This document shows, one piece after another, positions 33,001 through 39,000 of a stretch of DNA of 46,150 bases. The stretch lies in sequence record NC_021190.1; one strand, 5' to 3'. Made by a program: the position numbers. This stretch comes from Enterobacteria phage phi80. Numbering within the stretch: position 1 is the first letter of the stretch; each line of letters starts with the position of its first letter.

Positions 33001-36000
33001 TGTTGCCCGTTCTCACGCCGTTCTCGCTCTCGCGCGGGGATACTCTCTCACCGACCGGATCGCACCCGGTGATACAGCACGTTTACGTGTAGGGGTCTTA
33101 ACAGGTCATTGACGCTGTAAATCTGCATGTTGTTAAAAAGCAGGCGACTTGCTGTCCGCCGCTGGCTAACTTCGCTCAGCTGTCGATGTTTCGTTTCGAT
33201 GGAGTAATTAAACATCATGTGGATTTGTAGGTCAACACCTTGTGGATTTATTTTGTTGATTTAATCGTTTACTGTTGATTTTTATGTTGATTTATTTTTT
33301 GGTGGCATAAGTGATATGCTGAAAAAAACATCAAAAAGGAGTGGGTAATGGACTTGGATGAAGAAAGAGTGAACATGATGGTTCACGCCATGGGGCGGGC
33401 GGTCATGGAGTTGTCACTGGCAGATTTACCTATGACCCAGCAAAACATCATCGACAAGCTGGAACGGTACCGGAAGGAAACGGGAAACGTGATAGGTAAG
33501 GGTGTGAACAGGGATGCAGCTGAGATAGTCAGGAAGGGTAGTAAAGCTGTGAAGTAGGCACAAAAAACCCGGCGCGGTGGCCGGTTGTTAAAGCTCAATA
33601 TCAACTATGAAAAGTTTACTAATAGCCCCTTTTCTAACTGCTGCTTTGGCAGTTACTTTTACCGCTGACTCATGACTTAGACCCGTTGACAGAAAACGAC
33701 TAAGTGAAATGAGATACGGGTTGTCTGCCTTTGAAGCAGATGGATCGCTTATTTGTGCTGAGATGCGCTTATCTGAATCATCACCTTCTATAATGACTTT
33801 AGCGGTCATTCGGTGAGCGTCGAATTCAGTAAGGAAGATTCGATACTCCCTTAAGCCAAGAACTTCGTCGTCGTCCAACTGGTCTATTACTGCTTTATCT
33901 TGCTCATCAATTACAGCAGGCTTGAAACCATTCCCCGGTGTGACGCTTATCTTATTACAGGTGGTACCGATGGGGGAAACTGCCTGTCTAACTGATGGGC
34001 GTAACTCACTAGCCATCTTGTCAATCACTGAGATTAGACCTGAGATGGTATCTTTATCTTTATTTCCGAGGGCCTCAATTGCCTTCTCAAGTGCTTCTTT
34101 TAGGTATTTCATTTCCTCTTTCTTCTGCGAGTTTTTAGCGAAGATATAAGGCACTAATGCGCCAAGTATAGCCCCCGCAGACCCTGAGAACAATTGAGAC
34201 TGACTGATAAAATTCATGATAGTATCAAGAGAAAAACAATTGGCCCTAGCTTCGGTAGCGTAAATTTTAACCTCTTGAGTTGAGGTGCTTCGCGAGTACT
34301 TTTGGGTTAATGCGAAGGTTCCAGCTGTAGCTAATATCTTCGAAAATCCCTTTAGCGATTCACCGAGCGAAGAAAGTTCAATCTCATGCTTTTCAGCATC
34401 CAAACCGTCATATCTAAGTGAAAAATTAACATCGTGTAAGCCAGTGTTTTCCATCAACAGTCCTTATATGCTTTCACCAAAACGTCTCATCAGGCCACCA
34501 TAAGCACGATCGCAACAACCGAGAGCAAAGTAACCACGCCTACTATCAGATATTCTCTCATCACCCAAACGTCTCTTCAGGCCACTAAAATTATCGGCGA
34601 TATCGCAATACCGAGTACCAGAACACAAAACCGATTATCTCGACATCTGCCTCATCGGCCTCTTCGTCGTCATAATCACGATTAATGCTTCTGATTAGAA
34701 TTTTTCCGCCTGGTTTGCGATAAAGTTGCTTGATGCGCTTCAGATCTCCCTGGTTGATGGCGTAGAGTTCGCCGTCAATAACTCGCTTATTACCAGTATC
34801 AACAGCTACAGTTGCACCATCAGGAATGACTGGCTCCATACTGTCTCCTGATGCAGGAAAACACAGGACACCAGAACCATCACTATTGGCTCCAACTCGA
34901 CGGAGCGTTGCTTTTGAAAAGCGCAATTTAAAACCGTTGTGATCCTCATCGTGTACTCGTCCATCACCACACGCAAACTCGATATCCTTCAGAAACGGTA
35001 CTTCCACCTCATCGTCAGGTAGGGGGGTATTTTTGTCCCAAGCGTCGACAGTTCCCCACTCAGACTCTGGCGGGATGTTGCTCTCCAGATCCTTCTTTGG
35101 AGAACCCTCTCCATTTAATAACCAGTCAAGAGAATAACCGAATTTTTCAGATATTTGTTGCGCCGCCTCACGACTTAACGCGTCTCTTTTTATCCAGTTG
35201 TTGACGGTCTGTGGGCTAGTCGACAAAGCCTCAGCCAAATCCCGCTGCTTCAAGCCTTCCCTTGCCAGTAAAAATTTAATTCTTTCAGAAATGCTGCTCA
35301 TAAAACCCTCCGCTCCATGCATGGTAAACAACATGTGGATTTTTTCCATCACCATAATGTTGATTTAATCCACGCCATGAATTAACATGGTGTTGATTAC
35401 ACATGAGCGGAGCAAAACATGATCAACAAAAAATCCAACGCCAGCACCCCGCTTGAGAAAGCCATTAATGCAGTGGGCGGCTCTCAAAAGGTGCTTGCTG
35501 AAAAGGTCGGCGTAACGCCTCAGGCCATCAATATGCTTAAAAAGCGAGGTGGCAGCCTTCCAGTAACAAAAATGCGTAAATACGAAGAAGTAACCGGACT
35601 TCCTCGCGAAGTTCTATATCCAGGTATCTTTGCCGCCTAACCGGCGGCTCTAACCACGAAATGGAAAGCAATGCATTCACTTGCGTATCAACACAATACC
35701 GGAATACACCCGGGAGCGATGATAAACCGCGCTCAACCTAAGGCGGAGCCAGGTCACGACAAAATCCGCGATGCGGTCCGTGCATGGTCGTCGTCCCTGG
35801 ACAATCAGGACGTAGTGTCAGCGCTGATCATCAACGAATACCGGGAGCAGGGCGGTACCGCCATCAGCTTCCCAGAAGACATCAGCAGGGCGCGCCAGAA
35901 ACTTTTTCGCTTTCTGGATAACCGCTTCGACTCCGATCAGTACCGCGAGAACGTTAGAGAACTGACCCCGGCAATCATGGCTGTTCTTCCTGTTGAGTTT

Positions 36001-39000
36001 CGTACACGCCTGGCGCCGCAGAACGACACCATGTCGCTGATCGCATCTGCCATGAAGGAATGTTCAGAAGCAAAGCAAGCCGTTCTCCTGAACGCGCCTG
36101 AGCACCAGAAAATGAAGGAGGTAAGCGAGGGCATAGCGTCATTGTTTCGCCTCATGCCGGAGCAGGTAGGACCGCTGATGACGATGGTTACATCGATGCT
36201 GGGGGTTATATGAGAGGCACAAGAAAAGAAAAAGCCCTTGAAGCGGTAACTTCAAAGGCCCTTATCACACTGTGTTACGGCAAGTAACGGGAGTAAGTAT
36301 GTCAAACACCGCTGAAATAATCAATTTCCCAAATAAAACCGAACAACCGGGAGGTCGTATGGCCGACCTGTCGAACGGGTATACCAAGGTCGCTAACGAG
36401 ATCCAACAGCTTAAGCCTCGCCTGAGACTGTCAGGCCGGGAATGGCAATGTTTTGAGGCGGTGATCTGGCTTACCTACGGCTGGAACAAGAAACAGGACC
36501 GCGTGACAAATACGGTTATTGCCGAGCTTACGGGCCTGAGCGATACGCATGTATCGGACGCGCTTAAGTCTCTCGCAGAACGCAAAATCATCTTTTCACA
36601 GAAGCAGGGCATGATGAAAATCGTCGGTGTAAACACTGACCTTTCAGCATGGATTTTAGACAAACCGGAAACGGGAAGAAAATTCCCGAAAACGGGAAAA
36701 TCCTTCCCGAAATCAGGAATAACCTTCCCGAAAACGGTAGACACCCAATACAAGAACAAGAACAGTATTAAAAGATCTTCGTCCGAGAATTCTGACGAAT
36801 CCTCTGACGCACGTCTGAAGAAATTTTTATCAACTCATCCTGAAGCTGCGGTCTACACACCATCCGGTGCGAAGTGGGGCTCTGCTGAAGACCTCGAGAC
36901 AGCTAAGTGGATTTCCTCCAGGGTGAAGCTGATTAACCCAACCTGCAAAGCCCCGGACATGACCTCCTGGTCTAACACTGTTCGCCTGATGCGCCAGATA
37001 GACAACCGGTCGCACCAGGACATCTGCGCGCTGTATGACTGGGCTAGCAAACACCACTTCTGGCAGACCAACATCCTGAGTCCCGAAAGCCTGCGTAAGC
37101 AGTGGGACAAGCTGACAATGCAGCGTAACGCCGGAGGTGAGCAGCGCGCTGTCAAGCCAGATCTGGACTTCAACAACACTGACTGGGCCTATGGGGTGAT
37201 CCGATGAAATCTCTTGCAGAGCAGATGCGTAACCACGACCGCGAGCAGATGAGCCGCATGGCCCATAACCTGCCAGAGCAGTACCAGGAGTGCGCGCCGG
37301 TCGAGCAGGTGGCGCAGGTATTCAACAAGCTGTTCAACGAGCTGCGCGCCGCGTTCCCGGCCAGCATGGCGAACTTCCGCACCCAGGAAGACCTGAACGA
37401 ATTCCGCCGTCAGTGGCTGCTGGCGTTTCAGGAGAACGGGATCCACACCATGGCTCAGGTCGATGCCGGCATGCGCATTGCCCGCCGCCAGGAGCGCCCA
37501 TTCCTGCCGTCGCCGGGCCAGTTCGTCGCCTGGTGCAAGCAGAGCGGCGGCGCGCTGGGCGTCAACGTTGACCAGGTGATCGCCGAGTACTGGGAATGGC
37601 GTAATCGTTCGTTCGAATTCATCTCCAGCGAGCAATTTCCATGGTCGCAGCCGGTCATGTACCACATTTGCGTAGAATTGCGCCACCGCAGCACCGAGCG
37701 CCAGTTAACGCATGGTGAACTGGCACGCGAGGCAGGCGATCTGCTGGACATGTGGGAAAGGCGCGTCACCGAGGGTAAGCCAGTGCCGCCGGTACGCCGG
37801 GCTATTGCCGCACCAGCTGCCGAGCAAGGGCCGACGCCGATCCAGCTGCTGCTGGCCAAGTACAACCGCAACAAGTCGAACGGGATGGTGTGACATGAAC
37901 ATAACAATCCGCGGGCAGATTCTTGCAGCCCTGCGTAGGATACTGAGGACTAACCCATGAGCACCATTACCAAAGAATGGCTACTGAAGACTATCGCGGA
38001 GCTTGAAGAAGAGCGAGATGCTACGCCAGGCGCAGTGAACGAAGACGCGGCGATGGCGCTCGCTGCGATGAAGCTAGCGCTGGCATCGCTCGAAGCGGAG
38101 CCTGTGGCGTGGCTACTGTCAGGCGGCGGCGCAAAAAACAACGTCAGCTTCGATAGTGGCAATGCTTATGCCGCCCAGCTGCGAGAAGTAACGCCGCTTT
38201 ACACCGCCCCGCCAGCGCCGGTATCTGTGCCCGCTGCGATGGAAATTGATGATGACTTTGACAGCGCGTTTGAACACGGAAAAGCTGTCGGCTGGAACGC
38301 CTATCGCGCCGCCATGCTTCAGGCCGAACCTGTAAGTAATAGTGATGAGTTACCGCTGGACTATCTGCAAGGACACAAAGACGGCCTGGAGTGGGCTGCA
38401 CAATTGGCAGAAGCCAATCATCCGCAAACAGGTGACTGGTTGTACGACGACCAAATCGAACTTGCCAGGGCGATTCGCAAAGGTCCGGATATGCCTACTG
38501 TTCAGGGTGGCAACTCTCCGGTGATTCCAGATGGTTGGGTGATGGTGCCGGTTGAGCTTACTCCGGATATGCGTGCAGCATGGGATTCGGCTCCGTACAC
38601 AGACGATGATGACAACGACATGCAGGCTGCATACCGCGCGATGATTGCAGTAGCACCGCAGTGGAAGGTGAAGTGATGCAGAACCCATTCGACGCATAAC
38701 TAAACGTCAAGCAACGTTTGATAAAACACTATCAACGAGCCATAATAAATCTGCCAGCGGCCTGAACAACCCTGGCAGACTTCTGCGCATTTAAGGGGAC
38801 TTAAATGCGACCACAATATGAACTTCTCACCTTGTCACAGATGCAGAAATGCACCTGCGATTTTCTGTATTCTTCGGTTTCCGTCAAGGAGGCCGTATGA
38901 TTATCCCCAAAGACGGCATCAAGCTACACCGTGGAAATCTTGGTGCTATCACTCAGCATCTGAAGCCACTTCTCGAAAACGGTGAGTGCTTCCGGCTCCA

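What the first reader, a model, noticed from the sequence alone, without database searches (positions are those of the whole stretch)
35419..36213. Cro and cII positions filled by a YdaS-type HTH protein and a 180-aa YdaT-like protein
The gene after the cro-like regulator is 180 aa and unlike lambda cII, which may mean the lysis-lysogeny decision uses a different module. The YdaT assignment is by context and recollection only.
Basis: partly seen in the sequence, partly recalled or inferred. Interest (0 to 1): 0.45.

Follow-up and report, generated by a model that had tools for sequence, protein, structure and literature searches.

The report
Phage phi80 cro-like and cII genes
These two genes are the long-known cro-like gene 30 and the cII lysogeny gene of phage phi80; cII belongs to the YdaT family, which published work already treats as a stand-in for lambda CII, so the finding is correct but ordinary.

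Summary
Window 35419-35640 (+) encodes a 73-aa HTH protein and 35671-36213 (+) a 180-aa protein. They lie between a CI/S24 repressor and lambda-type O/P replication genes.

The window is phage phi80. GenBank X13065 ('phi80 early region') matches at 99.9% and names the two genes 'gene 30' and 'cII'.

The 180-aa protein is a clear YdaT-family member:
- Pfam PF06254, 98.7 bits against a cut-off of 21.
- PHROG 163 'CII-like transcriptional activator', E 1e-59.

It has no detectable similarity to lambda CII in sequence or fold.

Published work already states all of this. Jurenas 2021 says YdaT is homologous to phi80 CII. Prolic-Kalinsek 2023 and the 2025 NAR paper on Rac YdaT (PMC11879457) show YdaT is a tetrameric activator of a PRE-like promoter. 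The 'toxin' name is a misnomer.

Two things are added here:
- The 1988 annotation of cII as 132 aa comes from a frameshift error in that record; the ORF is 180 aa.
- A predicted phi80 CII box (35719-35736) lies 20 nt from a leftward -10 element (35698-35693). This spacing recurs across the YdaT family and suggests activation from about -41.5.

Verdict: already known, low interest.

The parts
34591..35301 (-). cI repressor of phi80. X13065 gives 236 aa starting MSSISERIKF; the longest ORF runs to 35355.
   Evidence: Peptidase_S24 E 1e-19 and Phage_CI_repr E 2.5e-10. X13065 cI CDS 2527-3237, offset +32064. GGAGGG lies upstream of the ATG at 35301-35299.
35318..35398 (.). OR operator region between cI and gene 30.
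   Evidence: X13065 misc_feature 'O-R region' 3254-3334. Repeated 18-mers ATCACCATAATGTTGATT and ATTAACATGGTGTTGATT at 35348-35365 and 35381-35398.
35419..35640 (+). Gene 30, a 73-aa HTH protein and the Cro analog of phi80.
   Evidence: X13065 'gene 30 (AA 1-73)'. HK225 homolog annotated 'Cro analog'. HTH_3 30.9 bits and YdaS_toxin 29.8 bits against a cut-off of 30. 34% identity to Rac YdaS.
35671..36213 (+). cII of phi80, 180 aa, YdaT family. Residues 1-27 are predicted disordered, about 28-111 form a POU-like HTH domain, and 120-139 form a long helix followed by two conserved C-terminal helices.
35693..35698 (-). Predicted -10 hexamer (TATTGT) of a leftward, CII-dependent PRE-type promoter inside cII codons 8-10. 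The predicted start is near 35686. This is an inference.
   Evidence: ORF nt 23, 27 and 28 are invariant in 46 distinct relatives, which keeps TAnnnT on the minus strand while the amino acids vary; codon 9 is always NNT with four different residues. A TAnnnT lies at the same 20-21 nt gap from the box in all 10 YdaT-family upstream modules examined.
35719..35736 (.). Predicted CII (YdaT-type) binding box ATGATAAACCGCGCTCAA at cII codons 17-22. It is a degenerate form of TTGATT-N6-AATCAA. This is an inference.
   Evidence: TGAT (nt 50-53) and TC (nt 63-64) are invariant in 46 relatives. Relatives carry fuller palindromes such as TTGATAAATCGCTATCAA and CTGATTTATGAAAATCAT. The mean palindrome score at this position ties for highest of 519 ORF positions. 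It is the only site in the window that combines a box with a -10 at a 20-21 nt gap. The footprinted Rac box ATGATTCATGAAAATCAA sits at the equivalent place (PMC11879457).
36229..36288 (-). M3 RNA, a small leftward oop-like transcript just downstream of cII.
   Evidence: X13065 misc_feature 'M3 RNA' 4164-4223, offset +32065. Intrinsic terminator on the minus strand at 36263-36230 followed by a T-run. Folds as a 5' hairpin plus a terminator hairpin, -22.9 kcal/mol, z -3.8.
36299..37893 (+). Replication genes 15 (O-like, 36299-37207) and 14 (P-like, 37204-37893), which close the module on the right.
   Evidence: Phage_rep_O E 6e-25 and Phage_lambda_P E 1e-49. X13065 genes 15 and 14.

Best explanation
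This is the rightward half of the immunity region of phage phi80. From the promoter in OR, the phage transcribes gene 30 and then cII.

Gene 30 encodes a 73-aa Cro-type HTH repressor. cII encodes a 180-aa YdaT-family regulator.

Shown here:
- The DNA is phi80.
- The two ORFs are the annotated gene 30 and cII.
- cII is a YdaT-family protein by profile and by predicted fold, and is unrelated to lambda CII in sequence and fold.

From published work on homologs (CP-933P and Rac YdaT):
- The protein forms a tetramer through a long helix that makes a four-helix bundle.
- It binds an inverted repeat of the TTGATT-N6-AATCAA type near the start of its own gene, using a POU-like HTH domain.
- It switches on a leftward PRE-type promoter that raises repressor expression, so it favours lysogeny.

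Inferred here for phi80:
- The binding box is ATGATAAACCGCGCTCAA (35719-35736).
- The promoter's -10 element is TATTGT on the minus strand (35698-35693), 20 nt from the box.
- The box would then be centred about 41.5 bp upstream of a start near 35686, replacing a -35 element.
- The transcript would run antisense through gene 30 and into cI, which has its own GGAGGG ribosome-binding site.

The 'toxin' in the Pfam names is a historical mislabel.
For: Identity:
- X13065.1 'Bacteriophage phi80 early region' covers window 34400-37300 at 99.9% and annotates cI, O-R, gene 30, cII, M3 RNA, gene 15 and gene 14 in this order.
- The 795-bp finding is 100% identical in DH5alpha, DH10B, TOP10 and other phi80dlacZ strains.

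Family:
- PF06254, 98.7 bits against a cut-off of 21; PHROG 163 'CII-like transcriptional activator', E 9.6e-60.
- phmmer hits to 8bt1 and 3c4r.
- AlphaFold model, pLDDT 75.5.
- Foldseek top hits 3c4r and 8bt1.
- The recognition-helix arginine (R80) is invariant.

Function by homology:
- PMC9986795 gives the tetramer structure and the footprinted box.
- PMC11879457 shows that mutating the Rac YdaT-box abolishes a 29-fold activation of leftward transcription and of racR.

Predicted phi80 site:
- Invariant nucleotides 23, 27, 28, 50-53 and 63-64 in 46 relatives.
- No indels between nt 11 and 66, although codons 11-16 are the most variable in the protein.
- Codons 9 and 21 are always NNT across 4 and 6 different amino acids; Ile18 is only ATA or ATT.
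- TAnnnT lies 20-21 nt from the box in 10 of 10 upstream modules, against 4 occurrences at all other spacings from 8 to 40.
Against: - No experiment on phi80 CII itself could be read. The 1988 Ogawa papers and the 2012 phi80 genome paper are not held. The genetic basis of the 'cII' name therefore rests on the GenBank annotation and on my recollection.
- The phi80 box is degenerate: only 3 of 6 symmetric pairs, four mismatches to TTGATT-N6-AATCAA, and not found at <=3 mismatches.
- The conserved nucleotides overlap coding sequence, and the relatives are not independent samples.
- The published promoter assignments differ from my geometry. PracR4 is placed about 190 bp from the Rac box, and the CP-933P box is described as downstream of PRE933P.
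- The generic promoter scan found no sigma-70-like site in 34400-36500. That is expected for an activator-dependent promoter, but it gives no support.
- Tetramer formation was not modelled.
Confidence: 0.9

Rival explanations
1. The pair is a toxin-antitoxin or toxin-repressor module, as the Pfam names YdaS_toxin and YdaT_toxin and the PGAP name 'toxin YdaT domain-containing protein' imply. The 180-aa protein would poison the host.
For: Pfam and RefSeq names. Ectopic expression of Rac ydaS/ydaT is reported to be toxic (cited in PMC5917428 and PMC11879457).
Against: The predicted fold is a DNA-binding POU-like HTH followed by a long helix like the tetramerization helix of 8bt1. The position is the cro/cII slot of a functional temperate phage. 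PADLOC gives no hit. PMC8630535 found no toxicity for CP-933P YdaT and argues that the pair is not a TA system. PMC5917428 notes that lambda CII is also toxic when overproduced. MG1655 now annotates ydaT as 'DNA binding transcriptional activator'.
Confidence: 0.02
2. The 180-aa protein is a highly diverged true homolog of lambda CII, sharing ancestry rather than only function.
For: Both are HTH proteins that form tetramers through a C-terminal helix and sit in the same genomic slot. PMC11879457 points to a similar recognition helix with a conserved Arg-Trp (YdaT R57/W58, CII R43/W44).
Confidence: 0.05
3. phi80 CII acts mainly as a repressor or as a regulator of other targets, such as PR, a promoter in the nin region, or host genes, rather than as the activator of a PRE promoter next to its own start.
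For: Rac YdaT also binds operators in the racR-ydaS intergenic region and the host rcsA promoter (PMC11879457). The window holds box-like palindromes elsewhere: 27125-27142 scores 19.6 bits, above the 95th percentile of shuffles, and 38718-38735 overlaps a rightward sigma-70-like promoter.
Against: The box at the gene start and its fixed distance to a leftward -10 are the features conserved across the family. The other sites lack that geometry and were not checked for conservation. In both studied homologs, activation of the leftward promoter is the demonstrated activity (PMC8630535, PMC11879457).
Confidence: 0.08

Closest known systems
phi80 gene 30 and cII as annotated in GenBank X13065 (Ogawa et al. 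1988; paper recalled from memory, not read)
   Same: This is the same DNA. Gene 30 is identical, and cII has the same frame and stop codon.
   Different: X13065 gives cII as 132 aa from a GTG at window 35815. That record has a 1-nt deletion and an adjacent substitution at window ~35765-35767, which break the upstream frame. The window, the phi80dlacZ laboratory strains (100% identical) and 46 relatives support a 180-aa ORF from ATG 35671.
YdaT of cryptic prophage CP-933P (PDB 8bt1; also 3c4r)
   Different: Only about 24-27% identical. phi80 CII has a ~25-residue N-terminal extension that is predicted disordered and overlaps the predicted promoter and box. It also has a strongly conserved ~40-residue C-terminal helical region that the solved structures and the Pfam domain (residues 68-155) do not cover. 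Its box is degenerate relative to TTGATT-N6-AATCAA. The phi80 repressor is a CI/S24 type, not PaaR2.
YdaT/YdaS of the Rac prophage of E. coli K-12
   Same: 33% identity over the HTH core, E 2e-9. Gene 30 and YdaS are 34% identical. The footprinted YdaT-box lies at the gene start, and the same 20-nt gap to a minus-strand TATGAT is found.
   Different: Rac is defective, and its YdaT is 140 aa with its start codon inside the box. The literature places the activated promoter (PracR4) about 190 bp away.
Lambda CII and Cro
   Same: Same genomic positions and, for CII, the same role as an unstable tetrameric activator of repressor establishment. The binding site overlaps the 5' end of its own gene. 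An oop-like antisense RNA lies downstream.
   Different: No detectable sequence or fold similarity. Lambda CII binds the direct repeat TTGC-N6-TTGC flanking the -35, whereas the YdaT type binds an inverted repeat. phi80 M3 RNA ends 16 nt beyond the cII stop codon and so does not overlap the gene.

Membership tests
YdaT family (Pfam PF06254; PHROG 163 'CII-like transcriptional activator') | Profile match above the curated threshold. | tested here: met
   PF06254 at 98.7 bits against a cut-off of 21, E 2.7e-28, residues 68-155. PHROG 163 E 9.6e-60, residues 17-179. All listed homologs carry PF06254.
YdaT family (Pfam PF06254; PHROG 163 'CII-like transcriptional activator') | POU-like HTH domain with a long alpha2-alpha3 loop, followed by a long helix alpha6. 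| tested here: met
YdaT family (Pfam PF06254; PHROG 163 'CII-like transcriptional activator') | Conserved arginine in the recognition helix (Arg60 in CP-933P, R57 in Rac). | tested here: met
   R80 in FRF aligns with the R in FRW of 8bt1. It is invariant in the 20-sequence alignment.
YdaT family (Pfam PF06254; PHROG 163 'CII-like transcriptional activator') | Tetramer through an antiparallel four-helix bundle of alpha6. | not testable with these tools
   Only a monomer was modelled. A long helix at residues 120-139 is present.
YdaT family (Pfam PF06254; PHROG 163 'CII-like transcriptional activator') | Binds an inverted repeat TTGATT-N6-AATCAA near the start of its own gene. | tested here: inconclusive
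   No match at <=3 mismatches near cII. A degenerate box, ATGATAAACCGCGCTCAA, lies at codons 17-22. TGAT and TC are invariant there in 46 relatives, and several relatives carry near-canonical boxes. Binding was not tested.
YdaT family (Pfam PF06254; PHROG 163 'CII-like transcriptional activator') | Lies after a cro-like gene and before the replication genes, divergent from the repressor. | tested here: met
   Order cI(-), OR, gene 30, cII, O-like, P-like.
YdaT family (Pfam PF06254; PHROG 163 'CII-like transcriptional activator') | Activates a leftward PRE-type promoter. | not testable with these tools
   In silico only: a conserved minus-strand TAnnnT lies 20 nt from the box.
Lambda CII family (Pfam Phage_CII) | Sequence or profile similarity to lambda CII. 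| tested here: not met
   No Phage_CII hit in Pfam at E <= 0.1. BLASTP finds no alignment. hhalign gives probability 0.6%.
Lambda CII family (Pfam Phage_CII) | Lambda CII fold. | tested here: not met
Lambda CII family (Pfam Phage_CII) | TTGC-N6-TTGC direct repeats at the regulated promoters. | tested here: not met
   One site in the window, at 37668 inside gene 14, against 3.8 expected. None lies near cI, cII or int.
YdaS family (Pfam PF15943), for the 73-aa protein | Profile match above the curated threshold. | tested here: inconclusive
   29.8 bits against a cut-off of 30.0, E 5.5e-7. HTH_3 passes at 30.9 against 23. 34% identity to Rac YdaS over 56 aa, E 2e-5. PMC8630535 groups CP-933P YdaS with the Cro proteins of lambda, P22 and phi80.
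Type II toxin-antitoxin pair | A toxin with a cellular target, neutralised by direct binding of the partner. | not testable with these tools
   The predicted fold is that of a DNA-binding regulator. There is no PADLOC hit. The literature rejects the TA reading (PMC5917428, PMC8630535).

The most novel reading that the evidence does not exclude
Across the YdaT family, the activator box is coupled to a leftward -10 element at a fixed 20-21 nt gap, which centres the box near -41.5 or -42.5 as in a class II activator. The true CII/YdaT-dependent PRE promoter would then lie immediately next to the box. In the phi80 lineage it lies inside the first 22 codons of cII, so the promoter and a disordered N-terminal extension of the protein share the same DNA. 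This would revise the published promoter assignments for Rac (PracR4, about 190 bp away) and CP-933P (box downstream of PRE933P).
Probability: 0.45. Interest if true: 0.3.

Novelty: already known. Interest (0 to 1): 0.1.

Why it matters
It matters little as a discovery. phi80 cII has been annotated as cII in GenBank X13065 since 1988. The equation YdaT = CII analog has been published with genetics, footprints and a crystal structure, and one paper names phi80 CII as the homolog.

The practical value is in annotation:
- The same 795 bp sit in DH5alpha, DH10B, TOP10 and other cloning strains under the misleading RefSeq name 'toxin YdaT domain-containing protein'.
- The old 132-aa phi80 CII entry is a truncated artefact.

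The predicted box and -10 geometry gives a cheap, testable map of the phi80 PRE. It also offers a possible correction to where the YdaT-dependent promoter lies in Rac and CP-933P.

Tried and rejected
- **Canonical YdaT box in the window.** TTGATT-N6-AATCAA at <=3 mismatches gave 20 matches against 22.6 expected, none at the cII start. A simple pattern search therefore fails; the site emerged only from comparing relatives.
- **Generic sigma-70 scan of 34400-36500.** It found 0 sites.
- **Rfam on the whole window.** No family reached threshold, so M3 RNA has no Rfam model.
- **M17 (ATG 35719) or GTG 35815 as the true start.** Both rejected. Codon 17 is CTG in 5 of 46 relatives and lacks a conserved Shine-Dalgarno sequence, whereas ATG 35671 has one and indels upstream of codon 17 are in frame. 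GTG 35815 comes from a frameshift error in X13065.
- **CII-dependent pI and paQ analogs.** Box-like sites exist at 27125-27142, 38718-38735, 43123-43140 and 41384-41401 (inside Q), but none has a -10 at the family spacing. Only the first exceeds the shuffle maximum at the 95% level. A weak resemblance (TTGAG...) between the int upstream region and the PRE region was noted by eye and dropped as uninterpretable.
- **Primary phi80 literature.** The 2012 Lula/phi80 genome paper is not held, and no held paper describes phi80 cII mutants.
- **PADLOC on both proteins.** No hits.
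Full report
**What is there.**
- To the left, on the other strand, lies a repressor with Peptidase_S24 and Phage_CI_repr domains.
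- To the right lie genes with Phage_rep_O and Phage_lambda_P domains (PHROGs).
- The two ORFs therefore occupy the cro and cII slots of a lambdoid immunity region.

**Whose DNA it is.** Megablast of 34400-37300 against phage records gives 100% coverage at 99.9% identity to X13065.1, 'Bacteriophage phi80 early region'.
- That record annotates, in order: N, O-L, genes 40A/40B, cI, O-R, gene 30 (73 aa), cII, M3 RNA, gene 15 and gene 14.
- The related phage HK225 labels the homologs 'Cro analog' and 'CII-like transcriptional activator'.
- The 795-bp finding is 100% identical in DH5alpha, DH10B, TOP10, NEB 5-alpha, XL10-Gold and similar strains, which carry phi80dlacZ. RefSeq calls the genes there 'helix-turn-helix domain-containing protein' and 'toxin YdaT domain-containing protein'.
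- The finding is thus gene 30 plus cII of phi80.

**The YdaT assignment.** It is correct.
- Pfam PF06254 (YdaT_toxin) matches residues 68-155 at 98.7 bits against a cut-off of 21.
- PHROG 163 'CII-like transcriptional activator' matches residues 17-179 at E 9.6e-60.
- phmmer against PDB sequences finds only 8bt1 (YdaT of CP-933P) and 3c4r at E below 0.01.
- An AlphaFold model built on 20 homologs (pLDDT 75.5, residues 1-27 disordered, eight helices) has 3c4r and 8bt1 as its top Foldseek hits.
- Against Rac YdaT the protein is 33% identical over the core, E 2e-9.

**The 73-aa protein.** It passes HTH_3 and misses the YdaS_toxin cut-off by 0.2 bits, at E 5.5e-7. It is 34% identical to Rac YdaS. 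'YdaS-type' is therefore a fair but borderline label.

**Relation to lambda CII.** Using the lambda genes from NC_001416:
- BLASTP finds nothing at E <= 100.
- hhalign of the family profile gives probability 0.6%.
- Lambda CII does not appear among the structural neighbours.
- The lambda CII recognition repeat TTGC-N6-TTGC occurs once in the window against 3.8 expected, inside gene 14.
- The protein is therefore not a recognisable divergent lambda CII. It is called cII in phi80 by function and position, not by homology.

**What is already published.**
- Jobling (PMC5917428) argued in 2018 that YdaS/YdaT are the Cro and CII equivalents and not toxins, citing Casjens 2003.
- Jurenas et al. (PMC8630535) showed that CP-933P YdaT activates a PRE-like promoter and is not toxic. 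They state that it 'is homologous to CII from Phi80'.
- Prolic-Kalinsek et al. (PMC9986795) solved the structure: a POU-like HTH plus helix alpha6 that forms a four-helix-bundle tetramer. [quoted passage not shown] It showed that this box is needed for a 29-fold activation of leftward transcription and of racR.
- MG1655 now annotates ydaT as 'DNA binding transcriptional activator YdaT'.
- Every element of the finding, including its link to phi80, is therefore known.

**Gene length.** X13065 gives cII as 132 aa, starting at a GTG that corresponds to window 35815.
- Aligning the record with the window shows one deleted base and one substitution at window ~35765-35767 in the 1988 sequence. These break the frame upstream.
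- The window, the laboratory strains and 857 homologs of about 180 aa support the long ORF.
- ATG 35671 is the likely start. Relatives keep a Shine-Dalgarno sequence before it (AAGGGA or AGGAG). Three lineages have +6-nt in-frame indels near the start. Codon 17, the next ATG, is CTG in 5 and TTG or GTG in 10 of 46 distinct relatives.
- The 132-aa version would lack the first helix (residues 28-43) and the start of the second (46-59) of the DNA-binding domain.

**Where phi80 CII probably acts (inference).** I fetched 52 related prophage loci and aligned the genes by codon.
- The first ~70 nt of the ORF carry nucleotide-level constraint. Third-position entropy is 0.80 in codons 1-10 and 1.01 in codons 17-23, against 1.2-1.5 in most of the rest of the gene.
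- The invariant nucleotides in 46 distinct sequences include nt 23 (A), 27-28 (TA), 50-53 (TGAT) and 63-64 (TC).
- Codon 9 is always NNT although it encodes N, S, D or G. Codon 21 is always NNT with six different amino acids. Ile18 is only ATA or ATT.
- Nt 49-66 (window 35719-35736, ATGATAAACCGCGCTCAA) is a degenerate YdaT box. Relatives show TTGATAAATCGCTATCAA, CTGATAAAGCGAAATCAG and CTGATTTATGAAAATCAT at the same place. The mean palindrome score there ties for the highest of 519 ORF positions (3.72 against a mean of 1.52, sd 0.62).
- Nt 23-28 read TAnnnT on the minus strand (phi80 TATTGT, window 35698-35693).
- No relative has an indel between nt 11 and 66, although codons 11-16 are the most variable in the protein. 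A promoter spacer would behave this way.

**Is the arrangement general?** I examined Rac, phages with CP-933P-like or more distant YdaT genes, and IMG/VR relatives of the Rac and Stenotrophomonas types.
- In 10 different upstream modules a minus-strand TAnnnT lies 20 nt (7 cases) or 21 nt (3 cases) from the box edge.
- Only four other TAnnnT hexamers occur at all other spacings from 8 to 40.
- Some modules are related, so they are not ten independent trials.
- This places the box centre about 41.5-42.5 bp upstream of a start 7 nt beyond the -10, which is the position of a class II activator.
- In phi80 the predicted leftward start is near 35686. The transcript would run antisense through gene 30 and reach cI with its GGAGGG ribosome-binding site.
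- In the whole window this is the only place where a box scoring >=10 bits is paired with a -10 at that spacing; 0.14 such pairs are expected in shuffles.
- This differs from the promoter positions proposed for Rac and CP-933P, and it needs experiment.

**Other box-like sites.** A symmetric family matrix finds three sites of 14 bits or more, against 0.28 expected in shuffles: 27125-27142 at 19.6 bits (95th percentile of shuffle maxima 17.0), 43123-43140 at 14.7 bits and 38718-38735 at 14.5 bits. A further site, at 13.5 bits, lies inside the Q gene (41384-41401; Q identified). None has the -10 geometry and none was checked in relatives. I do not claim pI or paQ analogs.

**Context.** M3 RNA (36288 to 36229, minus strand) has a strong terminator and folds as an oop-like small RNA. 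It ends 16 nt beyond the cII stop codon, so it does not overlap the gene. No Rfam family matches anywhere in the window.

**Verdict.** The thing is phi80 gene 30 plus cII, a known non-homologous functional equivalent of lambda Cro/CII, so it is already known and of low interest. What this analysis adds is the corrected gene length, the misleading 'toxin' annotation in common laboratory strains, and a testable prediction of the phi80 PRE core and CII box.

Noticed in passing
window 35765-35767 (X13065 ~3701): The 1988 phi80 record has a 1-nt deletion and an adjacent substitution relative to the window. This explains why it annotates cII as 132 aa from a GTG at 35815 instead of the 180-aa ORF. 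Old database entries for phi80 CII are probably N-terminally truncated.
   Followed up: yes
window 35693-35736; L055:1652-1695; L057-L060; L061-L220: Across YdaT-family loci, a minus-strand TAnnnT hexamer lies 20-21 nt from the YdaT box in 10 of 10 upstream modules. This implies a class-II-type PRE right next to the box, unlike the published promoter positions in Rac and CP-933P.
   Followed up: yes
window 35632-35648 and 35649-35656: A GC hairpin, GCCGCC-TAACC-GGCGGC, followed by CTCTAACC lies between gene 30 and cII. It is conserved in many relatives even where the upstream cro-like gene differs (GCCGCTTAACGGCGGCCCTAACC). It may be a nutR or boxA/boxB-like element, or a tR1-like signal.
   Followed up: no
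window 38718-38746: A perfect outer palindrome, TTGATAAAACACTATCAA, is the best match in the window to the canonical YdaT box (2 mismatches). It overlaps a good rightward sigma-70-like promoter (TTGATA, 17 nt, CATAAT) in the gap before the NinB-like gene. Two hairpins follow at ~38752-38822.
   Followed up: partly
window 27125-27142: CTGATACAGGTTAATCAG is the strongest YdaT-box-like palindrome in the genome: 19.6 bits, above the 95th percentile of shuffle maxima. It lies inside the N-terminal fragment of a Dam-type methyltransferase ORF. No -10 sits at the family spacing.
   Followed up: partly
window 26494-26835 and 26921-27379 (- strand): A D12-class adenine methyltransferase is split into two ORFs matching profile positions 1-130 and 167-253. 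The gene appears interrupted or frameshifted.
   Followed up: no
window 33588-34457 (- strand): A 289-aa ORF with DUF7946 and DUF7947 lies just downstream of cI, in the rexAB position of lambda. X13065 annotates only 209-aa and 95-aa products (genes 40A/40B). It has a weak PADLOC hit to candidate defence family PDC-S42 (E 1e-5) and may be a prophage-encoded exclusion or defence gene.
   Followed up: partly
window 24775-24820: Three direct copies of (T)TGTGTAC(C/A)C lie immediately upstream of, and overlapping, the start of the integrase gene. That gene is on the + strand and converges on xis (26013-26255, - strand). The repeats are probably Int arm-type sites or part of attP.
   Followed up: no
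window 36140-36213 (cII residues ~140-180): The C-terminal ~40 residues (EHQKMKEVSEGIASLFRLMPEQVGPLMTMVTSMLGVI) are among the most conserved parts of the protein. They are predicted helical and largely lie outside the Pfam YdaT domain and the solved YdaT structures. They may be a stability or protease-targeting determinant, by analogy with the lambda CII C-terminal tag.
   Followed up: no
window 36296-36324 (- strand): A plausible promoter for M3 RNA has -35 TTGATT (36324-36319), a 17-nt spacer and -10 CATACT (36301-36296). This places the start at the annotated 5' end, 36288, and overlaps the start codon of replication gene 15.
   Followed up: partly
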